From: Eledone cirrhosa
Taxonomy: Eukaryota
Assembly: GCA_964016885.1 (NCBI GenBank)
Contig: OZ024740.1
Span: forward strand, 202,306,001 to 202,370,000
DNA: 64,000 nucleotides
Direction of reading: 5' to 3'
In this document: one piece after another, positions 12,468 through 63,863 of the stretch
Position numbering within the stretch: the stretch's first letter is position 1
How the letters are laid out: each line of letters starts with the position of its first letter
Made by a program: the position numbers and the translations under genes
The notes under the pieces: generated by a model
What the model was told of the DNA's origin: nothing
Databases searched by the model: none
What the model saw: only the letters and a program-made list of their open reading frames with translations

Positions 12468-12842
12468 CTAAATATACTTCTACCTCGTCTCGCCAATTAT
12501 GATGTCTGTCCTGAAATTCCGGCAAATGGCTACCGAAGTTTACTTATGGTTATACAGAAATGTAGTCTCCACTTGTTACAACTGAGTCGCCATATTATGA
12601 TAAATAGGAACTGTGTTCTCTTCCGTATTGTTCACTATACACGAGAACTGGAATCTTATGTTACTGTTCTTGGACAGCTACGAGCTTGTTTGTATTTCTC
12701 ATGTCGGCTAATGAATTATTGTCCAAAAGATTCTTTGTTCATTGACAAGGATCTCCTAGAAGATCCAATTGCCTTTAGACTTTTGAAAGAATTTGATTCC
12801 CTCGGTCAAGACTGTTTTTATGGACGCTGCCTTGGATTTCAG
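12468..12842 (+). CDS. LIPE: Hormone-sensitive lipase, coding exon (HSL N-terminal domain)
   Basis: Acceptor ttctccttgcag, donor cag|gtaaat, 375 nt, phase 0-0. Translates LNILLPRLANYDVCPEIPANGYRSL...QDCFYGRCLGFQ, matching the HSL_N motifs PANGYRSL and CFYGRCLGFQF. Confidence 0.95.
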
Positions 12843-18633: not shown

Positions 18634-18789
18634 TTTTGTGAGTCAATGCGGAAACCACTGTTGTGTGTAGTTGTGGCTCTGGCTTCGTTCAGTGAAGGGT
18701 ACAACGAGACAAGTAACTTTATGAAGTTTGCCTACTCTGTATTGAGTACTGGCAAGTATTTGTTGGATCCAGAGCTGAGGGCACGTCAG
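18634..18789 (+). CDS. LIPE: Hormone-sensitive lipase, coding exon
   Basis: tttctatttccag acceptor, cag|gtatgt donor, 156 nt. FCESMRKPLLCVVVALASFSEGY...STGKYLLDPELRARQ continues the previous exon in frame; DPELR is an HSL motif. Confidence 0.93.
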
Positions 18790-19754: not shown

Positions 19755-19832
19755 GTGGTCCATGTTGCTAGAAGTGCCGACATTCAGTTCTGTAAATCCT
19801 TTTGGTCACTCCTTGAGACTGATATTTCTTCA
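19755..19832 (+). CDS. LIPE: Hormone-sensitive lipase, coding exon (not in ORF track)
   Basis: cttgttaccag acceptor, tca|gtaagt donor, 78 nt. VVHVARSADIQFCKSFWSLLETDISS corresponds to HSL 'DVHFWKAFWNITE'. Confidence 0.92.
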
Positions 19833-23164: not shown

Positions 23165-24410
23165 ATCATGATAATGACCTGCTTTACGATGCATCTGATC
23201 CCTCTTATGCCCAGTTTCTCTCTCAGTTCATTTGTGCTTTGCCATTCATGTATATTATTATTACACATCCATCGAAGCATGCAAGTTTCATTTCTTTCAA
23301 TCTATGCAGGTCCTCTGCACACAGTGTTCAGCTCTCACGACCATGCAACATTGCTATTTGTATACACGCATCATACAATCTGCATTTCATTTTGAAGAAA
23401 AAGCTTTTTGTAACTAGCAGTGGTAGTAGCTCTCTGAACTTCTTCCATCCTGTTCTCACTCTGGCTACTGTACTTTCAGAACACCCACCTCCACTGCTAA
23501 TTTGGTCACCCAGGTAGCAAAGGTTGTCTACTGCTTCTACAGAACCTTCCAAGAATTTTATAGTGCTTGTTTCCTGTGGGTGTTTGCTGCTTACTTCTCC
23601 CATGCAATGGCCACATGTAAAACTTACATTCTTAGCTAAACTATGTGAGATCCCACTACATCTATTGTGTACCCATAGTTTGCATTTGGGACAGAGGTTG
23701 GAAGTTTTACCTATGCCTTTCCTACACACTGAGCATGGTCATTTCCTTGAGTGGATTAGGGCTCTGTTTTCCCTTGTACTTACTAGGACCTTAGTCTTTG
23801 TCAGGTTGACTTTAAGACAATAATAAACAGGAGAGGGCTAAGAACAGAGTCCTGATGGATGCTACCTGCATACTAAATTCTTCACTATAGTCATTGTTAA
23901 TCCTAACTTTGCTGACTGTTCCCCTATACATGGCTTTTACAGCCTTTACAAGCCACTCATCTACTCGTAGTTTTCTAAGAGCACATCAGATTATAACGCA
24001 GAGGACTCTGTCAAAAGCTTTGTCCAGATCAACAAATGCCATTTAGAGCAGCTTACTTTTAGCTAGAAACCTCTCCAGTAGCTGCTTCACAAGGAAGAGA
24101 GCATCTGTGGTACTTTTTCCTGGTACAAATCTGAACTGCATCTCATCTAGATTAATCCGGTCCCTAATCAGCTTTGCTATAACTCTGTTACTTTCATGAC
24201 CTGGTCCATCAACTTTATACCTGTATAGTTTTCTCTACCTAGTGCATCTCCTTTACCCTTGTAGCAGTTGACAATGATGCTGCTGCACCAATTATTTGGT
24301 ATGATGCCATCTAATATTACTTGATTTAAAATATGTGCGGTTATGGTGTGACCTACCGAACCAGATGCTTTCAGCAAATCTACTTGGGGTAGACTATCTT
24401 TCTCTCATGC
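23165..24410 (-). mobile_element. Older RTE LINE RT fragment
   Basis: NCYKGKGDAL, QFRF, VDLDKAFDRV, CRKGIG..CPKCKLWVHNRCSGI, ARVRTGWKKFRELLPLL. Confidence 0.88.
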
Positions 24411-29212: not shown

Positions 29213-29477
29213 TTAACCCTTTTGATACCAAATTACCTAAAACCAGCCCTGGCTCTATCATACAAAAGCTGTTTATTTTATGATATTTATATTTATCTAA
29301 AAACTGGTCATCGTAATTTTATCTATGAACCTTAGTTAAGTTAGGTTCCAAACACTAGCTTAATAACCACAAAGTCACTTATATTACTTAATCCTTCCAA
29401 ATTCTTGATTATTTTCAAAAAGATTTGAAAATTATAGGTAGTGTCTTTCATTAGAAATATGGTAACAGAAGGGTTAA
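29213..29477. mobile_element. piggyBac-type MITE
   Basis: TTAA|cccttttgatacca ... tggtaacagaaggg|TTAA. Related copies near 11500-11660, 27200-27660 and 41890-42305. Confidence 0.75.
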
Positions 29478-29658
29478 ACCAAAAATAAAAACAAAAAAAT
29501 AATATTCTGTGATAGAAAACAGCCTTTATCTTCAGACAAGCATCCTGAAATATTGCTGAACCAATCTTCCCCAAGATGTTTTATATGCGTGTATCACCAT
29601 TGTTATGAAATCAAGCCAAATGTAGGTGAATTATAAACTGAATTTTCACCAATTTCAG

Positions 29659-29769
29659 GGTGTAACTGATTTTGTTAGTTCTTGTAACAAATCTGTTATA
29701 AATGTGGTTGCTTCAGCGGGTAGTAAAGTTGTGGACGTTGGTTCAAAACTGATGAATGCCTGTATGTCG
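29659..29769 (+). CDS. Candidate cassette exon of HSL (37-aa amphipathic insert)
   Basis: aattttcaccaatttcag acceptor, tcg|gtaagt donor, 111 nt, stop-free, phase 0-0 like the host intron. Encodes GVTDFVSSCNKSVINVVASAGSKVVDVGSKLMNACMS. No counterpart in vertebrate HSL that I recognise. Confidence 0.6.
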
Positions 29770-29882
29770 GTAAGTTTGTCATTGTTCTTGGTTGGTGTCT
29801 ATACAACATTTTTTATACACTCACTCAGTCCCCAAGTGTCTTTGTAGTAAACATTGTATGTATATATGTATGTATGTATATA

Positions 29883-29925
<43 letters not shown>

Positions 29926-29932
<7 letters not shown>

Positions 29933-30240
29933 TATCATTGCCAACAGAAGTAATAAAACACTGTTTATTACTTGAATAAAAGAATAAAATATTAAAACAT
30001 TGTTTATACTTTGAGTCTAGCCCTTTCATCCATCAAAGAGACTTATCAAGATATAAAGTTAGTTGTTGTCAAACTTCTTTTAACAACAATGAATATATTT
30101 TGATAAGCCCCTTTGATGAATGAAAGTGCTAGATTCTAAGTTTAAACAATATTATAATACTATATATATATATATATATATATATATTTTATTTAAGTGA
30201 TAAACAATGTTTAATTACTTCTTCTGACAATGATATTTTA
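29926..30240. repeat. Older, diverged fold-back cassette in (TA)n
   Basis: tatcattgccaacagaagtaat.. pairs with ..attacttcttctgacaatgata; both arms contain TTGATAA...GAAA. Confidence 0.75.
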
Positions 30241-32180: not shown

Positions 32181-33646
32181 AAGATAAAGACAAATTCACC
32201 TCATGCTGCCGGACGAAAAGGCAAGGACTCCCCCTCTTTGTTTCGGCCGCGGATGGCCAACATAACAGAGGAGTTCAAGACCGGCTGCCCATGGGAACTC
32301 CTATATGCAGATGATCTAACGCTCATAGCTGAATCAATGGCCGAGCTAGAGAAGAAATTCCAAACATGGAAGCACGGCCTAGAATCAAAAGGCCTTAAAA
32401 TTAACCTGGCTAAGACTAAAGTTCTAGTTTGTAAGAAAGAAAATAAGGCGGCGGTCCCCTCCGGGAAGTGGCCATGCGCAGAGTGTAGGAAAGGCGTAGG
32501 TAGAAATTCCATTTTGTGTCCCAAATGCAAAGTTTGGGTGCATAAAAGATGTAGTGGGATCACAGGTAAGCTAACTAAGAACATAGATTTTACATGTGGC
32601 CGGTGTTCTGGGGCAATAAGTAGCAGCAAGTGCCCATAAATACTAGCTCTTTCAACTGCGCAGAGGGTTCTATAGAAATAGTGGACAGCTTCTGTTACCT
32701 GGGTGACAAAATCAGCAGTGGGGGAGGGTGCTCTGAAAGTACAGTAGCTAGAGTCAGAACTGGGTGGAAAAAGTTCAGAGAGCTTATACCACTATTAGCC
32801 GCTAAAGGGTTCTCCCTAAAAATGAAAGGCAGGCTGTACGATGCCTGCATACGAACAGCAATGTTGCATGGCAGTGAGACCTGGGCATTGTGTGCAGAGG
32901 ATATACGCAGACTAGAGAGGAACGAAGCTTGCATGCTCCGCTGGATGTGTAATAGTAATATACGTGAACGACAAAGCATAAACGAACTAAGGAAAAAATT
33001 AGAAATAAGAGGGATCAGATGTTGTTTACTAGAGAGAAGGCTACGTTGGTATGGTCACGTGATGCGCATGAAGGACGATAGCTGTATAACAAAGTGCAGG
33101 GCAATAAAGATAGACGGTAGCCACGGAATAGGCAGACCCAGAAAAACCTGGGACGAGCTGATAAACTCCGACCTCACACACTTACACCTCACCAAGACAA
33201 TGTCACTGGACCGAGACCTTTGGCGGTACTCAGTAATAGAGAAGACCCGCCTTACCTAAATACAAAGTAAAACCTACTACAGTCAGTAGGCATCTCTAAC
33301 AAAATACACCCCCGTCCCACCACCCCCACCCCATCCACACCGCCCCCTTCTATGTAAAGTTATGTTGGTGCCACACCATCCAGGCCGAAACAAATGAGAT
33401 CGTGTAGGTGTCACGACAAAAAAACACACAGTCCACGCTGTAATGTGGCCGTGTAGGCAACACGGTAAAAACCTCCCAGACCCACACTGTAAATGTGGTT
33501 GGTGTTAGGAAGGGCATCCAACTGTAGAAAACCTGCCAGACAGTCCTATGCGAGCAAGACAATCACTCTTGCCTCAAGTGGGAAAACCCCCGTCCAAACC
33601 CATGCAAGCGTGGAACACGGACGTTAAACGTTGATGATGATGATGA
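32181..33646 (+). mobile_element. RTE-clade LINE, internally deleted copy
   Basis: The 5' end (..FRPRMANIT) is joined to the RT C-terminus (EEFKTGCPWELLYADD), followed by a Cys-rich insert, MLHGSETW, RRLRWYGHV, GRPRKTW, the 3' UTR and a (TGA)n tail. Confidence 0.92.
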
Positions 33647-33649
33647 TAT

Positions 33650-33686
<37 letters not shown>

Positions 33687-34808
33687 TATATTATATATAT
33701 ATTATATTATATATTATATTATTTATATTATATTATATATATATATATATATATATATTATATTATATTATATTATATATATTATATATATATTATATTA
33801 TATATATATTATAATATATATATTATATATATATTATAATATATATATTATATATATATTATAATATATATATTATATATATATTATATTATATATATTA
33901 TATTATATATATTATATATATATTATATTATATTATATATATATTATATTATATATATATTATATTATATATATTATATATATTATATATATATTATATT
34001 ATATATATATATATTATATATTATATATATTATATTATATATTATATATATTATATTATATATATATATATCATATATATTATATTATATATATATATAT
34101 CATATATATTATATTATATATATATATATATATTATATATATTATATATATATATATATATTATATATATTATATTATATATATATATTATATATATTAT
34201 ATATTATATTATATTATATATATTATATATATTATATTATATATATTATATATATTATATATATTATATTATATATATTATATTATATATATATTATATT
34301 ATATATATTATATTATATATATTATATATATATTATATTATATATATTATATTATATATATTATATTATATATATTATATTATATATATTATATATATAT
34401 TATATTATATATATTATATATATATTATATTATATATATATTATATTATATATATATGATATTATATATATATGATATTATATATATATATTATATTATA
34501 TATATTATATATATATTATATTATATATATATTATATATCTTCTATACATATTATATTATATATATTATATATATATTATATATATATTATATTATATAT
34601 ATATTATATTATATATATTATATATATATTATATTATATATTATATTATATTTATATTATATTATATATATTATATATATATTATATTATATTATATATA
34701 TATTATATATATATTATATTATATATATATTATATATATATTATATATATATTATATTATATATATATTATATATATATTACATTATATTTATTATATAT
34801 ATTATATA
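33647..34808. repeat. TA/TTA microsatellite tract
   Basis: About 1.2 kb almost exclusively A/T. Confidence 0.97.
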
Positions 34809-43460: not shown

Positions 43461-43649
43461 CGGATGTCATTACTGGCAGGTTTTGCACTTCAAGTGAACT
43501 CTGTACTGAAAATAGAACCAATTCCTATTGAGTTGCCAAAGACAAATTCCAAAGGAAAGGAAACTGTGTGTATTGAAGCACCATCTATCTACAGTGGCTT
43601 AACCAATGTTCAGTTTCGTTTGTTGTCCTTTGATCTTCTTCAAGGACAG
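43461..43649 (+). CDS. LIPE: Hormone-sensitive lipase, coding exon
   Basis: tatttttcag acceptor, cag|gtaaga donor, 189 nt. RMSLLAGFALQVNSVLKIEP...VQFRLLSFDLLQGQ corresponds to HSL 'VLVRLISYDLREGQ'. Confidence 0.92.
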
Positions 43650-44732: not shown

Positions 44733-44855
44733 GAAAAACTTCTAAAAGATCATCTGATAATCCGTTTACCAAATAAATCACAGCCACCATCACCTAGCCT
44801 CCTCTTCCATATCCATGGCGGAGGTTTTGTTGCTCAGTCGTCAAAGTCCCATGAA
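44733..44855 (+). CDS. LIPE: Hormone-sensitive lipase, exon with oxyanion-hole HGGG motif
   Basis: caattttccag acceptor, gaa|gtaaga donor, 123 nt. ...SPSLLFHIHGGGFVAQSSKSHE. Confidence 0.96.
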
Positions 44856-45231: not shown

Positions 45232-45450
45232 TGTAGCCGGAGGCATTTGGACTTACCTTGTGTCTCTCTGGTCTATGTGGGGGTACTTTCTGCTCGCGTC
45301 TGTCTACACACGTCCGTCACCTTGCAGGCCGTATAGCTATGAGGCCTCTGTTGACTGCCTGGTCCCTCGAGTCGCCCCAGTCCCCCAACTTCCGGCAATC
45401 CCGCTCCCATGGTAGCTCTACAGCTCCCTCTATCTCGCAGTAGCCCCACA
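45232..45450 (-). repeat. 3' LTR of Gypsy element
   Basis: tgtagccggaggcat...cagtagccccaca; diverged copy of 48580-48820. Confidence 0.9.
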
Positions 45451-48400
45451 CGCTCCCCGATCTCAAGGATCAGTCCCCCCCATCACACTGCTCCATCTCA
45501 AAATCTGCCATCCACCTAGGTTGGCGGCGGCTCCATTGCGATCTCCGCACTGTTGGGGCGGCACTTTCATTTTCCTCTTCCTCGGAGTCCGTCACCACAA
45601 CGACTCTACGGACGTCCAAGGCATGGCATTCCGTCCACAGACACGTTGTTTTCGGAATTTACGTGCATTCGGGGGCTTGACCCATACCTCTTCACCCACT
45701 CGTACGAATGCTCTCTCTCTCTCCACCGGCTGCTGTGGTACCATGCACAGATGTCGCCATTCATATCTGTATATTGCCCTGTGCGGCACCGACTCCTCGG
45801 CCTGTCCCATCCGCGGAGACATGTACCAGAACACTGCCTCTGTTGGCGAAATGAGCCCCATTTCCACCATAGCCTTGATCGTGCGATGGTGTCTCTCCCC
45901 AATCCCATTTCCATTCGGCCTGTATGCCGCTCTGAAGAAATGGTTCACCTTCCATTTGTCAAGCATTTCCCTCAGTGCCTCCGAGTGAAACGCCGTGCTG
46001 TTGTCCATCAGCAGTTCTTCCACAGGGCCCCGCTCCAAGAATATCTCTCTCAGCGTTCGCAGGATTTCCTCCGCAGTTTCTGTCTTCATTTCCCTCCATA
46101 TCGCCATCTGCCCTGACCCACAATTGACCATCGAAAGATACGTTCCTTGTCAGTAGTGTGTCATGTCCACCGCCAATTGCTTCCAGTTGTGCTCCACCGG
46201 GGTGCTGCCTGTCTTGTGTACACCCGGGGCAGGGTCGATAGACGGGTATCTGTCACAACCTCTGAGCACTCTCTGGACACTCTGTCTGTTAACATCAGAG
46301 TCGATTCTCCTGTCCTAGCCACCCCCATGTGGTGCATGGCGTGCAGTCCCCTCAACTCCGAATCACTCAGCCGACATACTGCCGCTATCCCCTTCTCTAC
46401 ATCGCCTGGCGTTTCCAGCAAGGCTTTCTTCACCCTGGTTAATACGTCTGCCCTGTTTTTCTCTGAGGGCACAAAAACCACACTCAACTCCAGGCCAAAC
46501 TCAGTGGACAGCTCTCCCAGAGTTGCCAGGCGGCGCTTTATCAAAGTTTCTGCTAACCTTCTCGTTCGCACCCTCCTCTCACTGGTAAGCACTAATCTCA
46601 CCCATTCGAGTACAGTGGCCGAGTCAGTGCTGATTTCTATGGTGCGCAGCCCCACCTCAGGGCGAGATTAACTCCCCTCAGCACAGCATTCAGTTCGGTC
46701 AAGTTGATGTGGTTGTAGTCCTCCTTCTTCCTGAGCCAGGCTGCGTCCTCGACCTCGATGCCCCCTATCTCCAGAGTGACCCCTAGTGATATGCTGCATC
46801 ACACCATACGGTCCCGCTCTCCGATTTGGAGACGTACCACCGTCCTTTCACTGGATCATCCGCCTTTACCCTCTCCACGATTTCCTGCATCATGGCCACT
46901 GTCCTCTCTCCAACCCTGTCAGCCCAGCTCAGTCCGTCTCTTGACATAGCTGCCGTCCGGAGCCACCCTGCGATAGGATAGTGGCCCACCAATTTACCAC
47001 ACATTGAGAAGAGTTCCTGTCTATTCATATCGGGGCCCAGTTACGAGAATTCGTTACCCCTCCGAAACGTAAGTGTGCCCGTGTTATCCCTTTGCAACCT
47101 GAGTCCTAGCGCGGCTCCTCCTTCCATCGCGGTCAGCCCGAACCTTCCCAAGTGGCCTGAGACTTCTGCTGCTGACACTACTGTCTCGTCCACCAACATG
47201 TCGTCGATGTAGAAGTTGGTGGCCTTCTTCACCTTGTCCGCTTTCCCCAGAATGGCCTTGAGGACCGTCGCCATGATTTTTGGTGCAGAGTTCAACCCGA
47301 AGCCAAGCCTGGTCAGACAGTATGTCTGGCCCTTATACCTGACCAGCTGATATTTCCACAGCTTCTCATCCACGTGTAACTGCAGATATGCCAACTTTAA
47401 GTTGACAATTGTGGAGCCCCCCCCTGTCATTTGTCTCCACTCTCGCAAAGTTTCCCCGCAAACATCCGTGACCTCATCGCCTGTGTGGCATGACACGTGT
47501 TTGTTCAGCTCATGAAAGTCCAGCACCGGCCTAACCTTGTTCTTTGTGGGCTGCACCACTGCCATCAGCGGCAACACTCCACACTTCACCTCCTCCTTCC
47601 AAGGAAGCAGTATACCCTCTTCGATCCATCTCTGTACCTCTCCCTGAAACTGGCTTCTGACATTTCCTTTCAGGGTATGCTGATAGCAGCCCACTCTGTT
47701 CTTCAGCGTTGGTAGATCTCCCTTCCAGGACCACTCAACTACCCACCGCCCTGAAATCCTTGTCCTGTGTGGTGTTTTCTTCGTGGATTCTCCCACGCGC
47801 ACAACACATTATGTCCTCTCGCTACCAAACGTCACCTCGACTTCAGTCACTGTAACACCTCCAAGGCAGCCAATTGTGTCCATGCCCATTACTAAATCGA
47901 TTCTGTCCATCACCTGGTCAATCACGATCGCCCGAAGCCTAATTTTTCTTCCCCGTTCCACCATCGACACCTCGCTGGTACCTCTGCATCTAATCTCCCT
48001 GTTGTCGACTGCCCTTATACTGCTCATCCCGCTGCACTTTTTAACCACCTCCATGGTCACTAGTGTTGTTGTGCAACCTGTGTCCACGAGTGCTCACGAT
48101 GGCTTCCTTTCCACCAAAACTTCCACTATGGGCAGCGACTGCAAAGGCGCTTCTACTTGCTTCCAGGAGTGGCTACCGGCGCAGTAGCCCCCTTAGTCCA
48201 TTTCCCTGGTCGCAATTATTTGCGATGTGGCCTGGTCGCTTGCAGCGATAACAGACTATGGCTGGCTTCGGCTCTCTGCAGTCCCTTGCCATGTGCGGGC
48301 CCTGGCACCTGAAGCACCGGCCTCCGAACATACGCGGACGACTATTCACAATGGCTGGTCTCCTTTCGTCATACGTCGGTTGCTGTCGACTGCCATGGGC

Positions 48401-48579
48401 TTCCGTCACTGCCAGTGCTGCAACACTCCATCTCGTGTCCTATGTTATTACACGGGCCTGTGCGATGAGCTTGCTCATGCTCTCATCTCCCTGTTGCCGG
48501 GCAGCTGTTGGAGCATGGCGCATTCGCGTTCTACCGCAAATCCGGCCAACGGGAAATTTCATTAAACGCCAAAATAGCT

Positions 48580-48820
48580 TGTAGCCGGAGGCATTCGGAC
48601 TTACCTTCCGTCTCTCTGGTCCACATGGGGGTACTTTCCGCTAACGTCTGTCTTCGGACGTTTGTCACCTTGCAGGGCGTATAGCTAAAAGGCCTCTGTT
48701 GACCGCCTGGTCCCTCGAGTCGCCCCGTCCTCCTGCTTCTGGTCAGGCATCCCCCAACTTTCGGCAATCCCTCTCTCACGGCAGCTCTACACCCCCCCTC
48801 TATCTTGCAGCAGCTCCACA
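48580..48820 (-). repeat. 5' LTR of Gypsy element
   Basis: tgtagccggaggcat...cagcagctccaca; has about 22 extra nt relative to the other LTR. Confidence 0.9.
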
Positions 48821-48892
48821 TCCCCTTAATTACTAGCTTTGAGCCAATAGTAGAAATTGTTATTGTTATTTTTGTCTTTCTAATTTTTCTAG

Positions 48893-49037
48893 GTTTACCT
48901 CCGTCAATGGGCCCATGAACTCAAAGTGCCAATTCTGTCTGTAGATTATTCTTTGGCTCCAGAAAATCCATTTCCACGGGCCTTGGAAGAATGTTTATAT
49001 ATTTATTCTTGGGTTTTGAAAAATCCTGAACAAGTTG
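48893..49037 (+). CDS. LIPE: Hormone-sensitive lipase, catalytic-domain exon (not in ORF track)
   Basis: taatttttctag acceptor, g|gtacgt donor, 145 nt, phase 0-1. [48 protein letters not shown](G). Confidence 0.96.
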
Positions 49038-51410: not shown

Positions 51411-53372
51411 GTGTTGTTGTTGTCTCCTTTTGTGTGTGTTATTAGCACAGAAATCACAGAAATAAGGGAAAGCAATAGGATTAAAAGGAGAAGGGAGACT
51501 AAGGACAAAGAAAATAACCAAGATGAACACACAGACACACAAAATAGGGTAGATAACAACAATGAGCCAGTGGAAAGAGACAGGAGTAATTATGAGAGAC
51601 ATAGAAACAACCATGAGGCTGTTGGTGGAAATAGAAATAGAAACAACACAACTAACAATAACAATAGCACTAGTACACATAAAGCAGCAGCCTGGAACTC
51701 TACGTTTTATAATCCCTCCGATAAATCGTTCGACCTGGGACGAGTCCACGCCACGACTCTACCATTGAACAAACGCACGCAATTGCCGTCGCAGGTCGAT
51801 GAACAAACAGAAGCACAATTTAGTATAGCTAGATCCGAACTTAGAAATATTATAGAACAGTATAGCAAGAAGCATAATAGAATGGAGGCCCAGCAACTGG
51901 GAGAAAAATCTGCAAATGGCTTGCGTAAGCTCATGCAGCGCTCGCGTAATGGAGAGATAGCATGCTTTCCAACAGACAAGTCTGGCAGAATGTCGGTTGA
52001 CAGCCTGCCAAACTACATCCAGGCAATGCAACCCCTCATCACTAACACAAGAGAGGTAACACCACAGGAGCATGAGGATAGAGAAAAAGCCCTCAATGCC
52101 CATATGGTGATGTGGACGAATATAATGCAGCCCAACAAAAGGACTGCCAACAACTTCCAGGCCTGGAACAATGATGTGCCGGCGTTGTATGGGCTTCGAA
52201 AAGACCATAAAACAGGCAGTGACCCTGTCGCGGGACCACCAACACGGCCAGTCTGTGGAGCTAACATTGCTAGTAACTACAGACTGTCCTACTTCCTCTC
52301 CCTGATCATACACCCCATCATTGAAATTTCCCCAGATGTATGTGACAGCACGGAGGACCTCCTCAGCAGAATCGGCGTGGGTAACCGATCTAGGGACCTA
52401 ACAAACTGCATAATAGGTAGTATGGATGTTGTGTCCCTGTATCCATCTATTGACGTGGATTTTGCTGTGGAGAAATGCGTAGAAATGATCAGTGAGAGCA
52501 ATGTTGAGTTCCGTGGGATTGATACCAGTGAGCTGGGACTCCTACTTAAACTTAACTATAGTAATAATTACCTAGACACATATGACCTTAGCAACCTGTT
52601 CCCTACAAGACCAGCAAGAGGCAGACCACCTACCATTACCTCAATGGCCAAGAAAACCCACACAGATAGATGGAACGGGTGGACCAGAGCCATACGGACA
52701 CCCGAAAACGACGATGAACTGAAGAAAATGATTGCACATGCGGTAGAGGCCAGCATAAAACTAACCCTTAAGGAACATATGTTCAAATTTAATGGAAAAA
52801 CATATGCCCAAGAGGAAGGAGCAGCCATTGGTGTTAGCATTGCAGGCGACATAGCTAACTTATTCATGGTATGGTGGGACAGTAGACTTAAACTTAAACT
52901 TAAAGAACAATTAGAAGACCCCTTAACCCTGATAATGTACTCCCGCTACGTTGATGATATAAACATCGTAGTTAAAACACTCCCACTAGAGAACAGTCAG
53001 GAATTAGAGAAGAACACAATGGAAAGCATCCAGCAAATAGCTAACTCCATCCACCAGAGCATTAGAGTTACTATAGACTACCCAAGTAAACACCCCAACC
53101 ATCGATTACCTGTACTAGACACAGAGCTCTGGTTAGATACCATTAATAACAAAAAACAAATCCTCCATTCCCATTATGCCAAACCCATGACTTCCAAACA
53201 TCTGATCCACCGAAACTCGGCCGTTTCGGACTATACCAAAATCAACATACTGATTGCAGATTTGGTACGGGTGATGAGAAATGTGTCCCGCATGTGCAAC
53301 CCAGAAGAACTAGAGACACATACAACATTTCATCCACCGTATGCAGTTCTCTGGCTACAATCAGAGAGATAA
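51411..53372 (+). pseudogene. PLE reverse transcriptase (frameshifted near 53315)
   Basis: 653-aa ORF with RT motifs; the reading continues in another frame as HIQHFIHRMQFSGY. Confidence 0.88.
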
Positions 53373-54075
53373 AATCAGAGTGTATAGAGGAGCCAGAACT
53401 AAATGGGAAAAAATGGTAAATAATGACATAAATGGGACCTGCCCCTTGTATAGGAGCAAATTTTGGAATAGAATAGAAAGAACTAGGAACAAGGCTAATA
53501 GAATAAACTCATGGTATGATAGCAATAAATACCAGAGTGTAATGTTCATCGATACAACCCCTAGAGGTGAATTAGCTTACAAATTTAGAAGGGCCCTAAA
53601 TAAACATAAACTCAATATTAAGATAGTAGAAAGACCAGGTACCTCCGTAAAAACACTTATTAGCAAGACATACCCTTTTCAAAGACCCTCATGTATAGAT
53701 AAGAAATGTATAACCTGTAAAATAAGCCCCCATATTAACTGTAAAACTAGAAATGCAGTGTATAGCATAAGATGTACTGAAGGACAATGTAGAGACAAAA
53801 ATATAGTGTACATAGGTGAGACAGCTCGTAGTGTAGGGGAACGGATAAATGAACACTGGCGAGACCTTCAAGATAGTAAAGAATCATCTGTACTCTACCA
53901 AAATGCTAAAATAGAACACAAGGGTAAATTAGAGAACATAGAAATAAAAATAGAATCTACACACAGAAAAGACGCAATGTTTAGACAAATTTCAGAGGCA
54001 ATAAACATAAAAGAATTACAACCAAAATTAAATAGAAAATATGAGTGGAACAGCAACATCACAACTTACAATTAA
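53341..54075 (+). pseudogene. PLE thumb/linker and GIY-YIG endonuclease
   Basis: CIDKKCITC...NCKTRNAVYSIRC...YIGETARSVGERINEH...RQISEAINI...LNRKYEW. Confidence 0.9.
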
Positions 54076-55067: not shown

Positions 55068-57752
55068 CTATTAGCGGCTAATAGTGGTATAAGCTCTCTG
55101 AACTTTTTCCATCCAGTTCTGACTCTAGCTACTGTACTTTCAGAGCACCCTCCCCCACTGCTGATTTTGTCACCCAGGTAACGGAAGCTGTCCACTATTT
55201 CTATAGAACCATCTGTGCAATGGTATGAGCTAGTATTCTGTGGGCACTTGCTGCTACTTATTGCACCAGAGCACCGGCCACATGTAAAATCTATGTTCTT
55301 AGTTAGCTTACCTGTGATCCCACTACATCTTTTATGTACCCATACTTTGCATTTGGGACATAAAATGGAGTTTCTACCTACGCCTTTCCTACACACTGAG
55401 CATGGCCATTTCCCGGAAGTGACCGCCGCCTTATTTTCTTTCCTACAAACTAGAACTTTAGTCTTAGCCAGGTTAATTTTAAGACCTTTTGATTCTAGGC
55501 TGTGCTTCCATGTTTGGAATTTCTTCTCTAGCTCGGCCATTGATTCAGCTATGAGCGTTAGATCATCTGTGTATAGGAGTTCCTATGGGCAGCCAGTCTT
55601 GAACTCCTCTGTTATAGCCTGAAGGGCAATAATAAATAGTAGGGCGCTAAGAACAGAGCCCTGATGGACACCATCTTTTACGCTAAACTCTTCACTATAT
55701 TCGTTGTTAATTCTAACCTTGCTGACAGTTTCTTTATACATGGCTTGTATAGCTCTCACAAGCCATTCGTCAACACCTAGTTTTCTAAGAGTCCACCAGA
55801 TAATGGAACGGGGGACTCTGTCGAAGGCTTTCTCCAAGTCGACAAAAGCTAAGTATAGGGGTTTACTTTTAGCTAGGTACTTCTCCTGTAGTTGTCGTAC
55901 AATGAAAAGAGCGTCTGTGGTACTTTTGCCTGACACAAACCCGAACTGCATTTCATCTAGATCAATTCTCTCTCTGATTAGTTGCGCTATTACTTTTTCC
56001 GTGACCTTCATGACCTGGTCGATTAATTTAATGCCTCTATAGTTACTCCTATCTAGGGCATCTCCTTTACCCTTATAACAGTTAATGATGATGCTGCTAC
56101 GCCAGTTCTTCGGAACAACCCCATTCTGTACGACTTGGTTTACTATCCAGGTGACCATGGTGTGTCCCACCATTCCAGATGCCTTCAGCATCTCAGCAAC
56201 TATTTCCGAAGGCCCAGCCGCCTTACCCGTCTTCATATCTTTGATTGCCTTACTTATTATATTACCCTCGACTAACACTGCTGGTCCCTCTATTGGGTCG
56301 ATGTGGGGGAGACTGTCTTTCTCCCATTTATTCTCCTCATTTAGTAGCCTTTCGTAGTGACACTTCCAAGCTACCTTCTTATCAGCATCGGTGATGGCAA
56401 GTACGCCTTCATCATTAAGTACACACTTCTCCCCGACAATATCACGGTTTTCCTTGACACATTGCCTAGCAATCCTGAACACCTCACGTTTTTGGTCCTC
56501 GCGTTGTAGAACATGCTTGAACTTTCTTTCCTCTGCTTCCCTCCTGGCCACTTGATAGTCTTCTCTACTTCCCCCATCCCTGCCATACTTTCCAAGCCTG
56601 CTTTTTGGCCTTAATTGACTCCTCCACCTTACTGTTCCACCACCATGTTACTCTCCTCCTGCCTACAGGCCTGCTCCAGCCACAGACTTCGTCTGCCGCC
56701 ATCAGCAGGTTTGCTTTCAGGAATTCCCACTGTTCCTCTATATTGTACGACTCTAAATGCTCTTCCTTACTGTCGAAAGCATCAAGTAATATGCTTTGAA
56801 ATTTATTTCTGGCTGTGGGGTCCTTTAGCTTCCATATTTTTCTCCTGAGGATAGTCCTCTTCTGCTGTCGGGTACGTCTCGTCCTGACTATGATGTCGCT
56901 AATTATCAGTCTATGTTGGGAGGTGCATTCTTCATGGGGGAGGGATTTAATGTTTACAACAGACACTCTGTCACGTCTTCTGGTAAGGATATAATCTACC
57001 TGGCTTGTGTGTTCCCCCGATCTATAGGTGATCAGGTGATTGTCTCATTTTTTGAAGTTGGTGTTACAGATAGTTAGGTTATTCGCGTCACAGAATTCCA
57101 GGATTCTGGAGCCTTCCTCATTTCTAGTACCAAACCCATAGCCTCCATGGATTCCGTCGTAGCCGTCACAATGTTGTCCAACGTGACCATTTAGGTCGCC
57201 TGCAATAATTATATAGTCACTGTCGGTTATTTGGGAGGTAGTGAGCATCAGTGTCTCATAGAATCTGTCTTTTATAGTGCCGGGCAGTCCGGATTGGGGT
57301 GCGTACGCAGATATTACTGTCACCGTAGTTCTATTGAGGACAAGTCTTATTTTAATTATTCTGTCGTTCACTCTATTTACGTCTATTATCTTATCTGCCC
57401 ACTTTTCTGCTACCATGATTCCTACTCCACCCAGCCCGTTGTCATTTCCCACCCAGAAAAGCTTATAGCATCGTTTTTTACCCACAATGAATCAAGCAGA
57501 CCCACCCATCCACCTGGTCTCTTGAATACAACAAACATCGACCTCCTTACGTTCAAGCATTTCTACAACCTCGTTAGAGCGACCCTTTAAGGTGCCTACA
57601 TTCATGGTACCAACTCTGAAGTTTTGGATTGGGTTTGTAGGGTGGGAGCGGTGGGGCGCGGGGGGAAATGGGGTTATGTTAGCCATCCGCGGCCGAAACA
57701 AAGAGGAGGAGTGCTCGCATTCTCGTCCACAAGGTGAATTTGTCTTTATCGT
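55068..57752 (-). mobile_element. RTE-clade LINE, inverted 5' portion (APE + RT)
   Basis: GTMNVGTL, CIQETRW, ISAYAPQ, GDLNGHVG, QVDYIL, SQHRL; RT NYRGIKL, QFGF, FVDLEKAFDRV, GVHQGSVLS. Several stops and frameshifts. Confidence 0.93.
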
Positions 57753-57768
57753 TGATATATATATATAT

Positions 57769-58626
57769 CTATTAGCTGCTAAAGGGTTCTCCCTAAAAAT
57801 GAAAGGCAGGCTGTATGATGCCTGCATACGAACAGAAATGTTGCATGGCAGTGAGACCTGGGCATTGTGTGCAGAGGATATACGCAGACTAGAGAGGAAC
57901 GAAGCTTGCATGCTCCGCTGGATGTGTAATAGTAATATACGTGAACGGCAAAGCATAAACGAACTAAGGGAAAAATTAGAAATAAGAGGGATCAGATGTT
58001 GTTTACTTGAGAGAAGGCTACGTTGGTATGGTCACGTGATGCGCATGAAAGACGACAGCTGTATAAAAAAGTGCAGGGCAATAAAGATAGACGGTAGCCA
58101 CGGAGTAGGCAGACCCAGAAAAACCTGGGACGAGCTGATAAATTCCGACCTCACACACTTACACCTCACCAAGACAATGTCACTGGACCGAGATCTTTGG
58201 CGGTACTAATTAATAGAGAAGACCCGCCTTACCTAAATACAAAGTAAAACCTACTACAGTCAGTAGGCATCTCCAACAAAATACACCCCCGTCCCACCAC
58301 CCCACTCCATCCACACCGCCCCTTTCAATGTAAAGTTATGTTGGTGCCACAACATCTAGGCCGAAACAAATGAGATCGTGTAGGTGTCACGACAAAAAAA
58401 ACACACAGTCCACACTGTAATGTGGCCATGTAGGCAACACGGTAAAAACCTCCCAGTCCCACACTGTAAATGTGGTTGGTGTTAGAAAGGGCATCCAGCT
58501 GTAGAAATCCCGCCAGACAGTCCTATGCGAGCAAGACAACCACTCTTGCCTCAAGTGGGAAAACTCCCGTCCAAACCCATGCAAGCGTGGAACATGGACG
58601 TTAAATGATGATGATGATGATGATGA
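57769..58626 (+). mobile_element. RTE-clade LINE, 3' portion of the same insertion
   Basis: Resumes at LLAAKGFSLKMK, where the inverted part stops; nearly identical to 32791-33646; (TGA)n tail. Confidence 0.93.
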
Positions 58627-58636
58627 TATATATATG

Positions 58637-58667
<31 letters not shown>

Positions 58668-58841
58668 GTATATATATGTATGTATATATATATATATGTA
58701 TATGTATATATATATATGTATATGTATATATATGTATATATATGTATATGTATATATATGTATATGTATATATATATATGTATATATATATGTATATATA
58801 TATGTATATATATGTATATGTGTATATATATATGTATATAT

Positions 58842-58875
<34 letters not shown>

Positions 58876-59814
58876 GTATATGTATATATATATATATGTA
58901 TATGTATATATATATATATGTATATGTATATATATATATGTATATATATATATGTATATATATATATGTATATATATATGTATATATATGTATATGTATA
59001 TATATATATGTATATATATATGTATATATATGTATATGTATATATATATATGTATATATATATGTATATATATGTATATGTATATATATATATGTATATA
59101 TATGTATATATATGTATATGTATATATATATATGTATATATATGTATATGTATATGTATATATATGTATATGTATATATATATATGTATATATATGTATA
59201 TGTATATATATGTATATATATATATGTATATATATGTATATGTATATATATGTATATATATATATGTATATGTATATATATGTATATATATATATGTATA
59301 TATGTATATATGTGTATATGTATATATGTATATATGTATATGTATATATGTATATGTATATATGTATATGTATATATGTATATATGTATATGTATATATG
59401 TATATGTATATATGTATATATATATATGTATATATATATATATGTATATATATGTATATATATGTATATATATGTATATGTATATATGTATATATGTATA
59501 TATATATATGTATATGTATATATGTATATATGTATATATGTATATGTATATATGTATATATATATATGTATATATATATATATGTATATATGTATATATA
59601 TATATGTATATATGTATATATATATATGTATATATATGTATATATATATATGTATATATATGTATATATATATATGTATATATATGTATATATATATATG
59701 TATATATATATATGTATATATATGTATATATGTATATATATGTATATATGTATATGTATATATGTATATATGTATATATGTATATATATATATGTATATA
59801 TATATATGTATATG

Positions 59815-59845
<31 letters not shown>

Positions 59846-59858
59846 GTATATATATATG

Positions 59859-59927
<69 letters not shown>

Positions 59928-60107
59928 GTATATATATATATGTATATGTATATATATATATATGTATATATATATATGTATATGTATATATATATATATG
60001 TATATATATATATGTATATGTATATATATATGTATATGTATATATATATGTATATGTATATGTATATATATGTATATATGTATATGTATATGTATATATA
60101 TGTATAT

Positions 60108-60163
<56 letters not shown>

Positions 60164-60205
60164 GTATATGTATATGTATATATATGTATATGTATATGTA
60201 TATAT

Positions 60206-60251
<46 letters not shown>

Positions 60252-60288
60252 GTATATATGTATATATATATATATATATGTATATGTA

Positions 60289-60360
<72 letters not shown>

Positions 60361-61133
60361 TATATATATATATATGTCTATATATATATATATGTCTATG
60401 TATATATATATATATATATATATGTCTATGTATATATATATGTCTATGTATATATATATGTATATATATATGTATATATATATGTATATATATATGTATG
60501 TGTATATATATGTATATATATATATATGTATATATATATGTATATATATATATATGTGTATATATATGTATATATATATATATGTATATATATATGTATA
60601 TATATATATGTATATATATATATATGTATATGTATATATGTATATGTATATATATATATGTATATATGTATATATATATATGTATATGTATATATATGTA
60701 TATATATATGTATATATATATGTATATATATATATGTATATGTATATATATGTATATATATATGTATATATATATATGTATATATGTATGTATATATATA
60801 TGTATATATATATATATGTATATATGTATATGTGTATATATATATGTATATATATATATATGTATATGTGTATATATATATGTATATATATATGTATATG
60901 TGTATATATATATGTATATATATATATATGTATATGTGTATATATATATGTATATATATGTATATGTATATATATATATGTATATATATATGTATATATA
61001 TGTATATGTATATATGTATATGTATATATATGTATATATATATATATATGTATATGTATATATATGTATATATATATATATATGTATATGTATATATATG
61101 TATATATATCTATATGTATATGTATATATGTGT

Positions 61134-61166
<33 letters not shown>

Positions 61167-61668
61167 TATATATGTATATATATATATATGTATATATGTA
61201 TATGTATATATGTGTATATGTATATGTGTATATGTATATATGTATATGTATATATGTATATATATATATGTATATATATATATATGTATATATATATATG
61301 TATATATATATATATGTATATGTATATATGTATATATATATATGTATATATGTATATATATATATGTATATATATGTATATATATATATGTATATATATG
61401 TATATATATATATGTATATATATGTATATATATATATGTATATATATGTATGTATATATATGTATATATATATATGTATATATATGTATATATATATATG
61501 TATATATATGTATATATGTATATATATATATGTACATATATATATGTATATATATATGTATATATATATATGTATATATATATGTATATATATATATGTA
61601 TATATATATGTATATATATATATGTATATATATGTATATATATATATGTATATATATGTATATATATG

Positions 61669-61699
<31 letters not shown>

Positions 61700-61848
61700 G
61701 TATATGTATATATATATGTATATATATATGTATATATATATGTATATATATGTATATATATGTATATGTATATATATATGTATATATATGTATATGTATA
61801 TATATATGTATATATATGTATATATATATATATGTATATATATATATG

Positions 61849-61897
<49 letters not shown>

Positions 61898-62128
61898 GTA
61901 TATATGTATATATATATATATATGTATATATATATGTATATATATGTATGTATATATATGTATATATATATATGTATATATATATATGTATGTATATATA
62001 TGTATATATATGTATGTATATATATGTATATATATGTATATATATGTATATATATGTATATATATGTATGTATATATATGTATATATATGTATGTATATA
62101 TATGTATATATATGTATGTATATATATG

Positions 62129-62165
<37 letters not shown>

Positions 62166-62461
62166 GTATATATATATATGTATGTATATATATGTATATA
62201 TGTATATATATATATGTATGTATATATATGTATATATGTATATATATATATGTATGTATATATATGTATATATGTATATATATATATGTATGTATATATA
62301 TGTATATATGTATATATATATATGTATGTATATATATGTATATATGTATATATATATATGTATGTATATATATGTATATATGTATATATATATATGTATG
62401 TATATATGTATATATATATGTATGTATATATGTATATATATATATGTATGTATATATATGT

Positions 62462-62515
<54 letters not shown>

Positions 62516-62516
62516 G

Positions 62517-62555
<39 letters not shown>

Positions 62556-62613
62556 GTATATATATATATGTATATATATATATGTATGTATATATATGTA
62601 TATATATATATGT

Positions 62614-62653
<40 letters not shown>

Positions 62654-62655
62654 GT

Positions 62656-62695
<40 letters not shown>

Positions 62696-63080
62696 GTATA
62701 TATATATATGTATGTATATATATGTATATATATATATGTATGTATATATATGTATATATATATATGTATATATATATATGTATATATGTATATGTATATA
62801 TATATATGTATATATATATATGTATATATATGTATATATATATGTATATATATATATATATATGTATGTATATATATGTATATATATATATGTATATGTA
62901 TATATGTATATATATGTATATATATATGTATATGTATATATATGTATATGTATATATATGTATATGTATATATTTATATGTGTATATATATATGTATATG
63001 TATATATATGTATATGTATATATATGTATATGTATATATTTATATGTGTATATATATATACATATATATATTTATGTATA
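58627..63080. repeat. (TA)n/(TATG)n microsatellite, about 4.4 kb
   Basis: Direct reading; source of the long low-complexity ORFs. Confidence 0.98.
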
Positions 63081-63082
63081 TA

Positions 63083-63863
63083 CGTGGGAAAGTGAAAAAT
63101 CGGAGAATAGACCGTTAAAACATGTTTATTGAAAATATCACCTACGTACGTTTCGCCCAGTTGGGCTTCTCAAGGGCATAAACAGTCACAAGTGTTCCTT
63201 ATATAGTTTGGAAAGAGATTTGGGGGTTAAATCGACATCAAGATTCATCGCTCGCAAAAATATCTTGTTTTGATTTTGCAGCAGGTCAAGGGAGGTAACT
63301 TTGGCCGGTGTTAGGGCAGTCTTTCCCGGATAATTTTTGGTATGCAGGGATCTTTTTCTGGGTGTTGTTTTGCTGCGCCTGCCCGCCGGGGTGTTAAGAC
63401 TTGTTGCAGGGAGATCCAGTGTGTTATTTCACTCTCCATTCTTAACCCATCTAAAGAAGGATATTTTTAAGCGATGTGTACAACTTATCGCTGTTTCAGC
63501 TCTGCTGTTGATGAGCTCGTGGGGTGCAGTTATGATGTGGTAGAGCTCCATGAGGCAAAGATCGCATTTCCTCTTGAAGTTGTACGGTGCAGCCCTGTCG
63601 ACAATCTCCCAGTGCGTGGAGAAGCTAATGTTTAAGTCCTTTAGTGATGTGATGTAGTCCGCGAGCGAGGTGGAGTGCCTTAGTTTTCTATTTGTGAAAG
63701 AGTGGAGATGTGTTCGAAACCTAATTTTGAACGGGCCGGAGGTGGCCCCTATATAATGTTTAACGCTATTGTGGCTAGTAATAGTGCATCTATATATAAC
63801 CCTATCGGTCAAGCAGTATCCTCTAAGGGGGCACCGTCCTCTGTCGAGGCAGTTGCAATTTCT
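63083..63863 (-). mobile_element. 5'-truncated Penelope-like element (GIY-YIG end + 3' hammerhead)
   Basis: [25 protein letters not shown]...[17 protein letters not shown]...CDLCLME...LINSRAE. Variant hammerhead at 63141-63176. Embedded in TA microsatellite. Confidence 0.88.
63141..63176 (-). ncRNA. Minimal hammerhead with U3-A8 variant core at PLE 3' end
   Basis: Minus strand: (c)cc TTGAGAA gccc aact gggc GAAA cgtacg TA gg; stem I is short. Confidence 0.62.

What the first reader, a model, noticed from the sequence alone, without database searches (positions are those of the whole stretch)
29659..29769. Hidden in-frame HSL cassette exon encoding a perilipin-like 11-mer amphipathic helix
Seen: a stop-free 111-nt segment with strong splice sites (ttttcaccaatttcag / tcg|gtaagt) lies in the middle of the 23.6-kb phase-0 intron. 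It would insert G-VTDFVSSCNKS-VINVVASAGSK-VVDVGSKLMNA-CMS between ETDISS and RMSLLAG. Hydrophobic residues recur with period 11 (positions 2/13/24/35, 5/16/27, 6/17, 9/20/31), and the peptide is rich in small residues (V, S, A, G). Known: 11-mer-repeat amphipathic helices target perilipins and apolipoproteins to lipid surfaces, and mammalian HSL is recruited to lipid droplets through perilipin. Inference: an alternatively spliced, built-in lipid-droplet anchor in a mollusc lipase. The flanking exons align to vertebrate HSL without it.
Basis: partly seen in the sequence, partly recalled or inferred. Interest (0 to 1): 0.75.

Follow-up and report, generated by a model that had tools for sequence, protein, structure and literature searches.

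The report
Optional fat-droplet helix in octopus lipase
Octopuses splice an extra 37-amino-acid exon into their fat-releasing enzyme hormone-sensitive lipase, likely only in some transcripts, and it is predicted to form an oily-faced helix that likely helps the enzyme grip fat droplets, a job vertebrates give to a different, permanent helix.

Summary
The exon is real. Window 29659-29769 is single-copy, frame-preserving and the only such candidate in the 23.6-kb intron. Contigs from 4 of 4 runs laid (four studies, related species, RNA by guess) join it exactly to both flanking exons. It is not hidden: NCBI models of Octopus vulgaris, O. sinensis, O. bimaculoides and Argonauta include it, and models exactly 37 aa shorter skip it. 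It is conserved like the catalytic exons (33/37, 31/37) and was seen only in octopods. The 11/3 amphipathic period is real (peak 97 degrees; 1 of 20,000 shuffles), but there is no perilipin homology, and 37 aa is below the length Plin4-type helices need alone. The closer analogue is HSL's own lipid-droplet helix: vertebrates have the H-motif, 41 of 104 HSLs scanned carry a similar helix in the regulatory region, and the octopods tested do not. The cassette sits in the CD1 cap/dimer centre (between human S251 and S252). Best reading: a splice-switchable, weak lipid-surface helix working with HSL's other contacts (0.55). Droplet binding is untested. New variant of a known kind.

The parts
29659..29769 (+). 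Cassette exon of hormone-sensitive lipase, 111 nt, phase 0/0, 37 aa, predicted 3-11 amphipathic helix
29643..29658 (+). 3' splice site (pyrimidine tract and CAG) of the cassette
   Evidence: contig edges at 29659 in 3 of 4 runs, 29662 in the fourth with the junction letters in its loose end
29770..29775 (+). 5' splice site GTAAGT of the cassette
   Evidence: contig edge at 29769 in 4 of 4 runs
19755..19832 (+). Upstream HSL exon (CD1 helices)
   Evidence: loose ends match its last bases
43461..43649 (+). Downstream HSL exon (end of CD1, start of the alpha/beta hydrolase core)
   Evidence: loose ends match its first bases
12468..12842 (+). HSL exon, N-terminal bundle with the loop equivalent to the human droplet-binding loop 97-103
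18634..18789 (+). HSL exon (CD1)
44733..44855 (+). HSL exon with the HGGG motif
48893..49037 (+). HSL exon (CD2); the catalytic Ser, Asp and His exons lie beyond the window (L008, L009)

Best explanation
This is a real 111-nt exon of the octopus hormone-sensitive lipase gene, likely skipped in some transcripts, that adds a 37-residue segment predicted to fold into a weakly hydrophobic amphipathic helix and likely helps the enzyme dock on lipid-droplet surfaces. Steps. (1) Shown: splicing to both neighbours in related octopods, frame kept, conserved. (2) Shown from database models, supported by contig shape: an exon-skipping isoform exists. (3) Shown by computation: an 11/3 hydrophobic period with a broad Val/Cys/Met face, both Asp opposite it and Lys towards the edges. 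(4) Shown by alignment: it is inserted in the last short helix of CD1, between human S251 and S252, the cap that the human structure places at the dimer centre and next to the acyl-chain pocket. (5) Inferred: the segment is flexible in solution and folds on a phospholipid/neutral-lipid monolayer, adding avidity to the conserved N-terminal hydrophobic loop and presenting the cap to the oil surface. (6) Inferred: it is a convergent stand-in for the regulatory-region helix (vertebrate H-motif and similar helices in many invertebrates) that octopod HSL lacks, so splicing would set how much HSL sits on droplets.
For: Junction contigs in 4 of 4 runs from four studies, with no cover of the flanking intron. 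NCBI models with the exon (O. vulgaris/sinensis X1, O. bimaculoides X1, Argonauta) and without it (O. sinensis X3, O. bimaculoides X2), 37 aa apart. Identity 33/37 and 31/37, against 89-100% and 78-100% for seven core exons and 55%/52% for the regulatory exon; all 9 variable positions are conservative (crude neutral expectation 0.003). Moment 0.44 at 98.2 degrees, higher than all 796 37-mers of the skip isoform. Hydrophobic/aromatic/charged fractions 0.43/0.03/0.14 lie close to Plin4 (0.35/0.002/0.15) and Plin3 (0.37/0.01/0.23) in Table 1 of PMC5889406, with a higher moment than either (0.26, 0.35). AlphaFold2 builds it as three helices at pLDDT about 37-41 on a confident HSL core (Z 37.4, rmsd 2.4, 562 aligned to 8zvq). 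41 of 104 HSLs have a regulatory-region amphipathic 25-mer reached by at most 5 of 100 shuffles (about 5 expected by chance); Octopus, Argonauta and this genome's own regulatory exon have none. The vertebrate member of that set is the tested H-motif (PMC11993637). Precedent for an optional exon as droplet helix: OPA1 exon 4 (PMC13192942, preprint).
Against: No binding data. Two Plin4 33-mers (66 aa) stay cytosolic (PMC5889406). The H-motif needs three aromatic residues and loses binding when they become Val (PMC11993637); the cassette has one Phe and eight Val. The discriminant for 18-mers is only 0.34-0.98 (thresholds of 0.68 'possible' and 1.34 'likely' are recalled). Amphipathic helices also pack on proteins, and open frames in a 40-kb genomic scan reach 0.45-0.53 for 33-mers. 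Sepia and an unnamed relative closest to it have neither the cassette nor a clear regulatory helix, and 16 of 104 HSLs have no qualifying window, so such a helix may be dispensable. The helix filter was set after seeing examples. Low pLDDT may only reflect that 4 of 49 aligned rows hold the exon. The skip junction was not seen directly, and no RNA of this genome's own species was laid.
Confidence: 0.55

Rival explanations
1. The helix acts within the enzyme: it packs on or replaces part of the CD1 cap and changes substrate access, acyl-chain preference or the CD1-CD1 dimer contact, without itself binding lipid surfaces.
For: The insertion splits the last CD1 helix. CD1 is the dimer centre, the dimer seems to block the active site, and the matching region of EST2 forms the acyl pocket (PMC11993637). 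The site is otherwise length-conserved: 137 of 146 proteins within -4 to +2 residues.
Against: A 37-residue, 11/3-period, aromatic-poor helix with a very broad hydrophobic face resembles lipid-surface helices more than a globular lid. AlphaFold2 gives no confident packing. This rival and the best explanation can both hold.
Confidence: 0.22
2. The helix binds another membrane (ER, lipoprotein or yolk particle, organelle bilayer) rather than lipid droplets.
For: Short amphipathic helices of this size and moment target Golgi vesicles or the nuclear pore membrane (GMAP210, 38 aa, 0.48; Nup133, 21 aa, 0.44; Table 1 of PMC5889406), and Val-enriched Plin4 mutants spill onto the ER (same paper).
Against: The host enzyme is a droplet lipase, and other HSLs carry a comparable helix that is droplet-binding where tested (PMC11993637).
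Confidence: 0.1
3. The helix is a protein-binding hendecad element (self-association, or binding to perilipin or another partner).
For: An 11-residue hydrophobic period also describes hendecad coiled coils (recalled); the genome has a perilipin gene.
Against: Few charged residues (5 of 37) and three Gly; six of eleven wheel positions are mostly hydrophobic, wider than a two-helix seam.
Confidence: 0.08
4. The exon is a tolerated or inactivating insertion with no targeting role.
For: It breaks a helix at a site that nearly all HSLs keep constant; a different 35-aa exon is modelled at the same junction in O. sinensis X2, so this intron can yield unrelated exons.
Against: Conserved like catalytic exons from Octopus to Argonauta, only conservative changes, same periodicity in all three versions.
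Confidence: 0.05

Closest known systems
H-motif of human HSL (residues 489-538; PMC11993637)
   Same: Built-in amphipathic helix of the same enzyme; the pike H-motif helix also peaks near 98 degrees (0.41).
   Different: Constitutive, in the regulatory domain, and dependent on three aromatic residues; the cassette is optional, in CD1, has one Phe and shows no sequence homology to it.
11-mer repeat helices of perilipins 1-4 (also apolipoproteins, alpha-synuclein)
   Same: 3-11 period, small-residue and aromatic-poor composition, low charge (PMC5889406, PMC4807253).
   Different: 37 aa against about 90-970 aa; no PAT domain, no Pfam match, no clear sequence repeat, inserted into a folded enzyme.
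OPA1 exon 4 (PMC13192942, preprint)
   Same: An alternatively spliced exon that encodes an amphipathic helix; there it is shown to send the protein to droplets, weakly compared with PLIN2.
   Different: A mitochondrial GTPase, exon in an unstructured region; here a lipase with the exon inside the cap subdomain, and binding untested.
NCBI isoform models of Octopus and Argonauta HSL (XP_029636330.1, XP_029636332.1, XP_014783711.1, XP_014783712.1, GAB1604851.1)
   Same: The same exon, included or skipped.
   Different: Automatic annotation only; no description of the exon or its function appeared in my paper searches.

Membership tests
Hormone-sensitive lipase (host gene) | HSL_N domain plus Abhydrolase_3 with HGGG, GDSAG and the Asp/His of the triad | tested here: met
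   Pfam on the orthologues P0001/P0004; motifs in window and flanking exons; fold match to 8zvq
Cassette (skipped) exon | Canonical AG/GT sites and frame preserved | tested here: met
Cassette (skipped) exon | Inclusion junctions to both neighbours | tested here: met
   4 of 4 runs laid, related species, contigs only
Cassette (skipped) exon | Skipping junction | tested here: inconclusive
   Not seen directly. Two NCBI models lack exactly these 37 aa; 3 of 4 contigs are 170-171 nt, the exon plus about 30 nt each side, as a splice bubble would give
Cassette (skipped) exon | Tissue- or condition-dependent inclusion | not testable with these tools
   Contigs give no inclusion levels; no tissue labels
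Perilipin family | PAT domain / PF03036 homology | tested here: not met
   0 Pfam families for the peptide at E<=10; none of perilipin type in P0001
Perilipin family | Sequence derived from the genome's own perilipin | tested here: inconclusive
   Best local score 29 in + strand frames of 20 kb of the perilipin locus, but its 11-mer exon was not located
Perilipin-type 11-mer amphipathic helix | Hydrophobic period of 11 residues per 3 turns | tested here: met
   Peak 97 degrees in all three versions; 0.44 at 98.2, 0.38 at 100, 0.21 at 102.9 degrees
Perilipin-type 11-mer amphipathic helix | Small-residue, aromatic-poor, low-charge composition | tested here: met
   0.43/0.03/0.14 against Table 1 of PMC5889406
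Perilipin-type 11-mer amphipathic helix | Length enough for stand-alone droplet targeting (over 66 aa for Plin4; about 90-100 aa in Plin1-3) | tested here: not met
   37 aa; PMC5889406 section 6, PMC4807253 passages
Perilipin-type 11-mer amphipathic helix | Unfolded in solution, folds on and binds the droplet surface | not testable with these tools
   Only a low-confidence helical model
HSL H-motif | Lies at the start of the regulatory domain | tested here: not met
   Cassette maps to CD1; the octopus alignment to human ends at 497 while pike aligns through 505-535
HSL H-motif | Three aromatic residues on one face | tested here: not met
   One Phe, no Trp or Tyr
HSL H-motif | Sequence homology beyond the hydrophobic pattern | tested here: not met
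   377 of 500 pattern-keeping shuffles score as high on the H-motif-type profile (9 segments), 257 of 500 on the profile of 30 other helices

The most novel reading that the evidence does not exclude
Animal HSLs commonly carry a lipid-surface helix in their regulatory region; the cephalopod lineage lost it, and octopods re-invented one as a new exon placed in the cap at the dimer centre, so that a splicing choice both anchors the lipase on droplets and loosens the closed dimer: lipolysis switched by splicing rather than by phosphorylation.
Probability: 0.18. Interest if true: 0.72.

Novelty: new variant of a known kind. Interest (0 to 1): 0.48.

Why it matters
If true, it gives a natural pair of HSL isoforms with and without a droplet-binding helix, a direct test of two ideas left open by the human structure: that droplet binding opens the CD1-centred dimer, and how short, weak helices cooperate to target droplets. 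It also suggests that the H-motif is one case of a wider, positionally mobile HSL helix, and points to splicing as a control of fat mobilisation in octopods. The exon itself is already in public gene models, and the function is a prediction.

Tried and rejected
Dispersed repeat or chance pseudo-exon: rejected. Homology to perilipin, to any Pfam family or to other HSL helices: not found; the Atlas gave no usable hit for the orthologous segment, which shows neither novelty nor absence. A search for shorter proteins holding the cassette found 2 candidates, none scoring. Internal DNA duplication at lag 33: 31 of 78 matches, little above lags 12 and 21 (34 of 99, 33 of 90), so not supported. In-register lengthening of the native helix: flank phases differ from the cassette's by 64 and 107 degrees at 97.3 degrees, so not supported. 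No TGCATG motif in 29301-30100. The O. sinensis X2 alternative 35-aa exon was not found in this window. No listed run is on record as RNA, which is no evidence either way. One call could not span both flanking exons (23.6 kb against a 20-kb limit), so the skip junction stays unseen. No complex prediction was run: a pass would follow from likeness to the solved dimer and a fail would say nothing. Earlier scan notes: 0 found. Paper searches listed nothing on cephalopod HSL splicing (listings and abstract starts only).

Full report
1. Observation. tBLASTn with an Octopus bimaculoides HSL maps six other exons in the window, the cassette matching 33 of 37; the first exons and those with the catalytic Ser, Asp and His lie in the neighbouring stretches. 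The flanking exons end at 19832 and start at 43461, both phase 0. A scan of the whole 23,628-nt intron for stop-free, 3n, 60-200 nt segments with a pyrimidine-rich YAG and a GTRAG donor returned this segment alone. DNA and protein searches of the own genome returned only this place.

2. It is a spliced exon. A run search listed 24 runs from 10 studies, none on record as RNA. I laid 4 of the 24, from four studies and four coded organisms, on 29400-29850. Each gave one contig covering the exon, about 95% alike, with no cover of the flanking intron; the loose ends match the last bases of the upstream exon and the first bases of the downstream exon. Exon-exon joins cannot come from the genomic locus, so these are spliced transcripts of related species; no RNA of this genome's own species was laid. 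Three of the four contigs are 171, 171 and 170 nt, the exon plus about 30 nt each side, which is what a branch on both sides gives in a 31-mer graph (inference); the fourth runs on upstream. NCBI holds models with the exon (O. vulgaris/O. sinensis X1, O. bimaculoides X1, Argonauta hians) and models 37 aa shorter without it (O. sinensis X3, O. bimaculoides X2). So the exon is already annotated, and skipping rests on those models and the contig shape.

3. Conservation and range. The peptide is 33/37 identical to the Octopus version and 31/37 to Argonauta; seven core exons give 89-100% and 78-100%, the regulatory exon 55% and 52%, the exon with the N-terminal extension 69% and 60%. All 9 variable positions have BLOSUM62 of 0 or more, against 52% of possible single-base changes (0.003, crude). 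Of 218 HSL-like proteins in hand, 146 matched profiles on both sides of the site (72 dropped); 137 had -4 to +2 residues there, 4 had this cassette (all octopods), 1 a different 35-aa O. sinensis exon, 1 an 11-aa insert (Lycorma), and 3 were mis-anchored (the set includes redundant cluster members). Sepia and four sequences of an unnamed close relative lack it, but a rarely included exon could be missing from such models.

4. The helix. The centred hydrophobic moment peaks at 97 degrees in all three versions: 0.44 at 11/3, 0.38 at 18/5, 0.21 at 7/2. Shuffles reach it 1 in 20,000 times, and none of the 796 37-mers of the skip isoform does. On a 3-11 wheel the hydrophobic face spans six of eleven positions, both Asp lie opposite it and the three Lys lie to either side of them, the class A layout of lipid-binding helices (recalled). 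Self-similarity at lag 11 (p 0.002) is little stronger than at lag 7 (p 0.009), so this is periodicity, not a repeat family. In a 40-kb genomic scan unrelated open frames reached 0.45-0.53: the moment counts because it falls on an independently proven exon. No Pfam family matches, and no likeness to the genome's own perilipin locus was seen (its 11-mer exon was not located).

5. Where it sits. The skip isoform aligns to human HSL (8zvq) from 12 to 497 with no gap at the site; the exon falls between human S251 and S252. PMC11993637 (I read the abstract, introduction, results up to the middle of section 13, and the discussion; no supplements) defines 175-262 as CD1, places it at the centre of a homodimer that seems to block the active site, and relates it to the acyl pocket of EST2. 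AlphaFold2 with 49 rows gives a confident core matching 8zvq (Z 37.4, rmsd 2.4, 562 aligned), helix 349-358 across the junction in the skip form, partly under pLDDT 50, and three helices at pLDDT about 37-41 in the inclusion form; only 4 rows hold the exon.

6. The better analogue. The same paper shows that human HSL binds droplets directly through the H-motif (489-538, needing F519, W526, F530) and an N-terminal loop (I100, F101). The loop has an equivalent in octopus; the H-motif helix aligns in pike but not in octopus. Scanning regulatory regions of 183 proteins (104 had both anchors and 60 or more residues; 79 dropped) for Pro-free, low-charge 25-mers, 51 reach a moment of 0.40 and 41 are matched by at most 5 of 100 shuffles, among them vertebrate H-motifs and small-residue helices in insects (a first pass on fewer proteins skipped 10 rows). 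Octopus, Argonauta, Sepia and this genome's own exon have no qualifying window; the cassette scores 0.48 on the same measure. Against this: 16 of 104 have none, Sepia lacks both, the filter was chosen after seeing examples, and the invertebrate helices are untested. Profiles of these helices do not prefer the cassette to pattern-keeping shuffles (257 and 377 of 500), so likeness is by pattern, compatible with convergence.

7. Limits from the literature. In PMC5889406 (passages and section 6) a 66-aa Plin4 helix is cytosolic and 132 aa is near threshold, though added Val strengthens binding; the cassette has a higher moment than Plin3 or Plin4 but is short. PMC4807253 (passages) shows 11-mer regions of about 100 aa suffice for targeting. 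PMC13192942 (preprint; abstract, sections 6 and 7) shows an alternatively spliced exon of OPA1 acting as a weak droplet-targeting helix, so the principle is known. Searches for HSL with octopus or cephalopod, and for a spliced amphipathic exon in a lipase, listed nothing on this exon; the library lacks most subscription papers.

8. Verdict. Real, conserved exon seen only in octopods, very probably alternatively spliced (about 0.9). Most likely a weak lipid-droplet helix that works with HSL's other contacts (0.55); main rival a cap or dimer modulator (0.22), and both may hold. It works like a perilipin helix or the H-motif but is a member of neither. New variant of a known kind; interest 0.48.

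Noticed in passing
P0018 698-722, P0023 721-745, P0021 608-632, P0082 656-680, P0118 665-689 and others: Many invertebrate HSLs, notably mosquitoes and a midge, carry a small-residue amphipathic helix late in the regulatory region that could be their counterpart of the vertebrate H-motif; I did not see it described in the listings.
   Followed up: partly
P0003 (O. sinensis isoform X2), same junction as window 19832/43461: A different, hydrophobic 35-aa exon is modelled in place of the cassette; no match in this window.
   Followed up: partly
L002 (G000:C1576:31902-32102) and L005: The genome's perilipin gene: PAT exon over the Pfam cut-off and several further likely exons up to about 39300.
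   Followed up: partly
window 29659-29769: Only 5 base differences to the contigs of three runs, of which 4 would be needed for the 4 amino-acid changes seen in P0001, against 4 silent changes in 20 flanking codons; a weak hint of low synonymous divergence (Fisher p about 0.05, partly inferred).
   Followed up: partly
window 29683-29685 and 29761-29763: Two Cys, kept in all three versions, lie on the hydrophobic face; possible S-acylation sites (speculation).
   Followed up: no
P0042 (Lycorma delicatula isoform X2): An unrelated 11-residue insert just upstream in the same CD1 helix.
   Followed up: no
window about 45300-48900, minus strand: Broken open frames that look like an LTR-retrotransposon integrase region inside an HSL intron (label recalled, not tested).
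   Followed up: no
window about 23300-24400 and 56500-58200 (minus), 53314-54072 (plus), 63430-63800 (minus): Fragments that look like LINE endonuclease/reverse transcriptase and GIY-YIG (Penelope-like) elements (labels recalled, not tested).
   Followed up: no
window about 33600-34800 and 58600-63100: Very long AT-rich simple-repeat tracts that read as spurious open frames of up to 1,501 codons.
   Followed up: no
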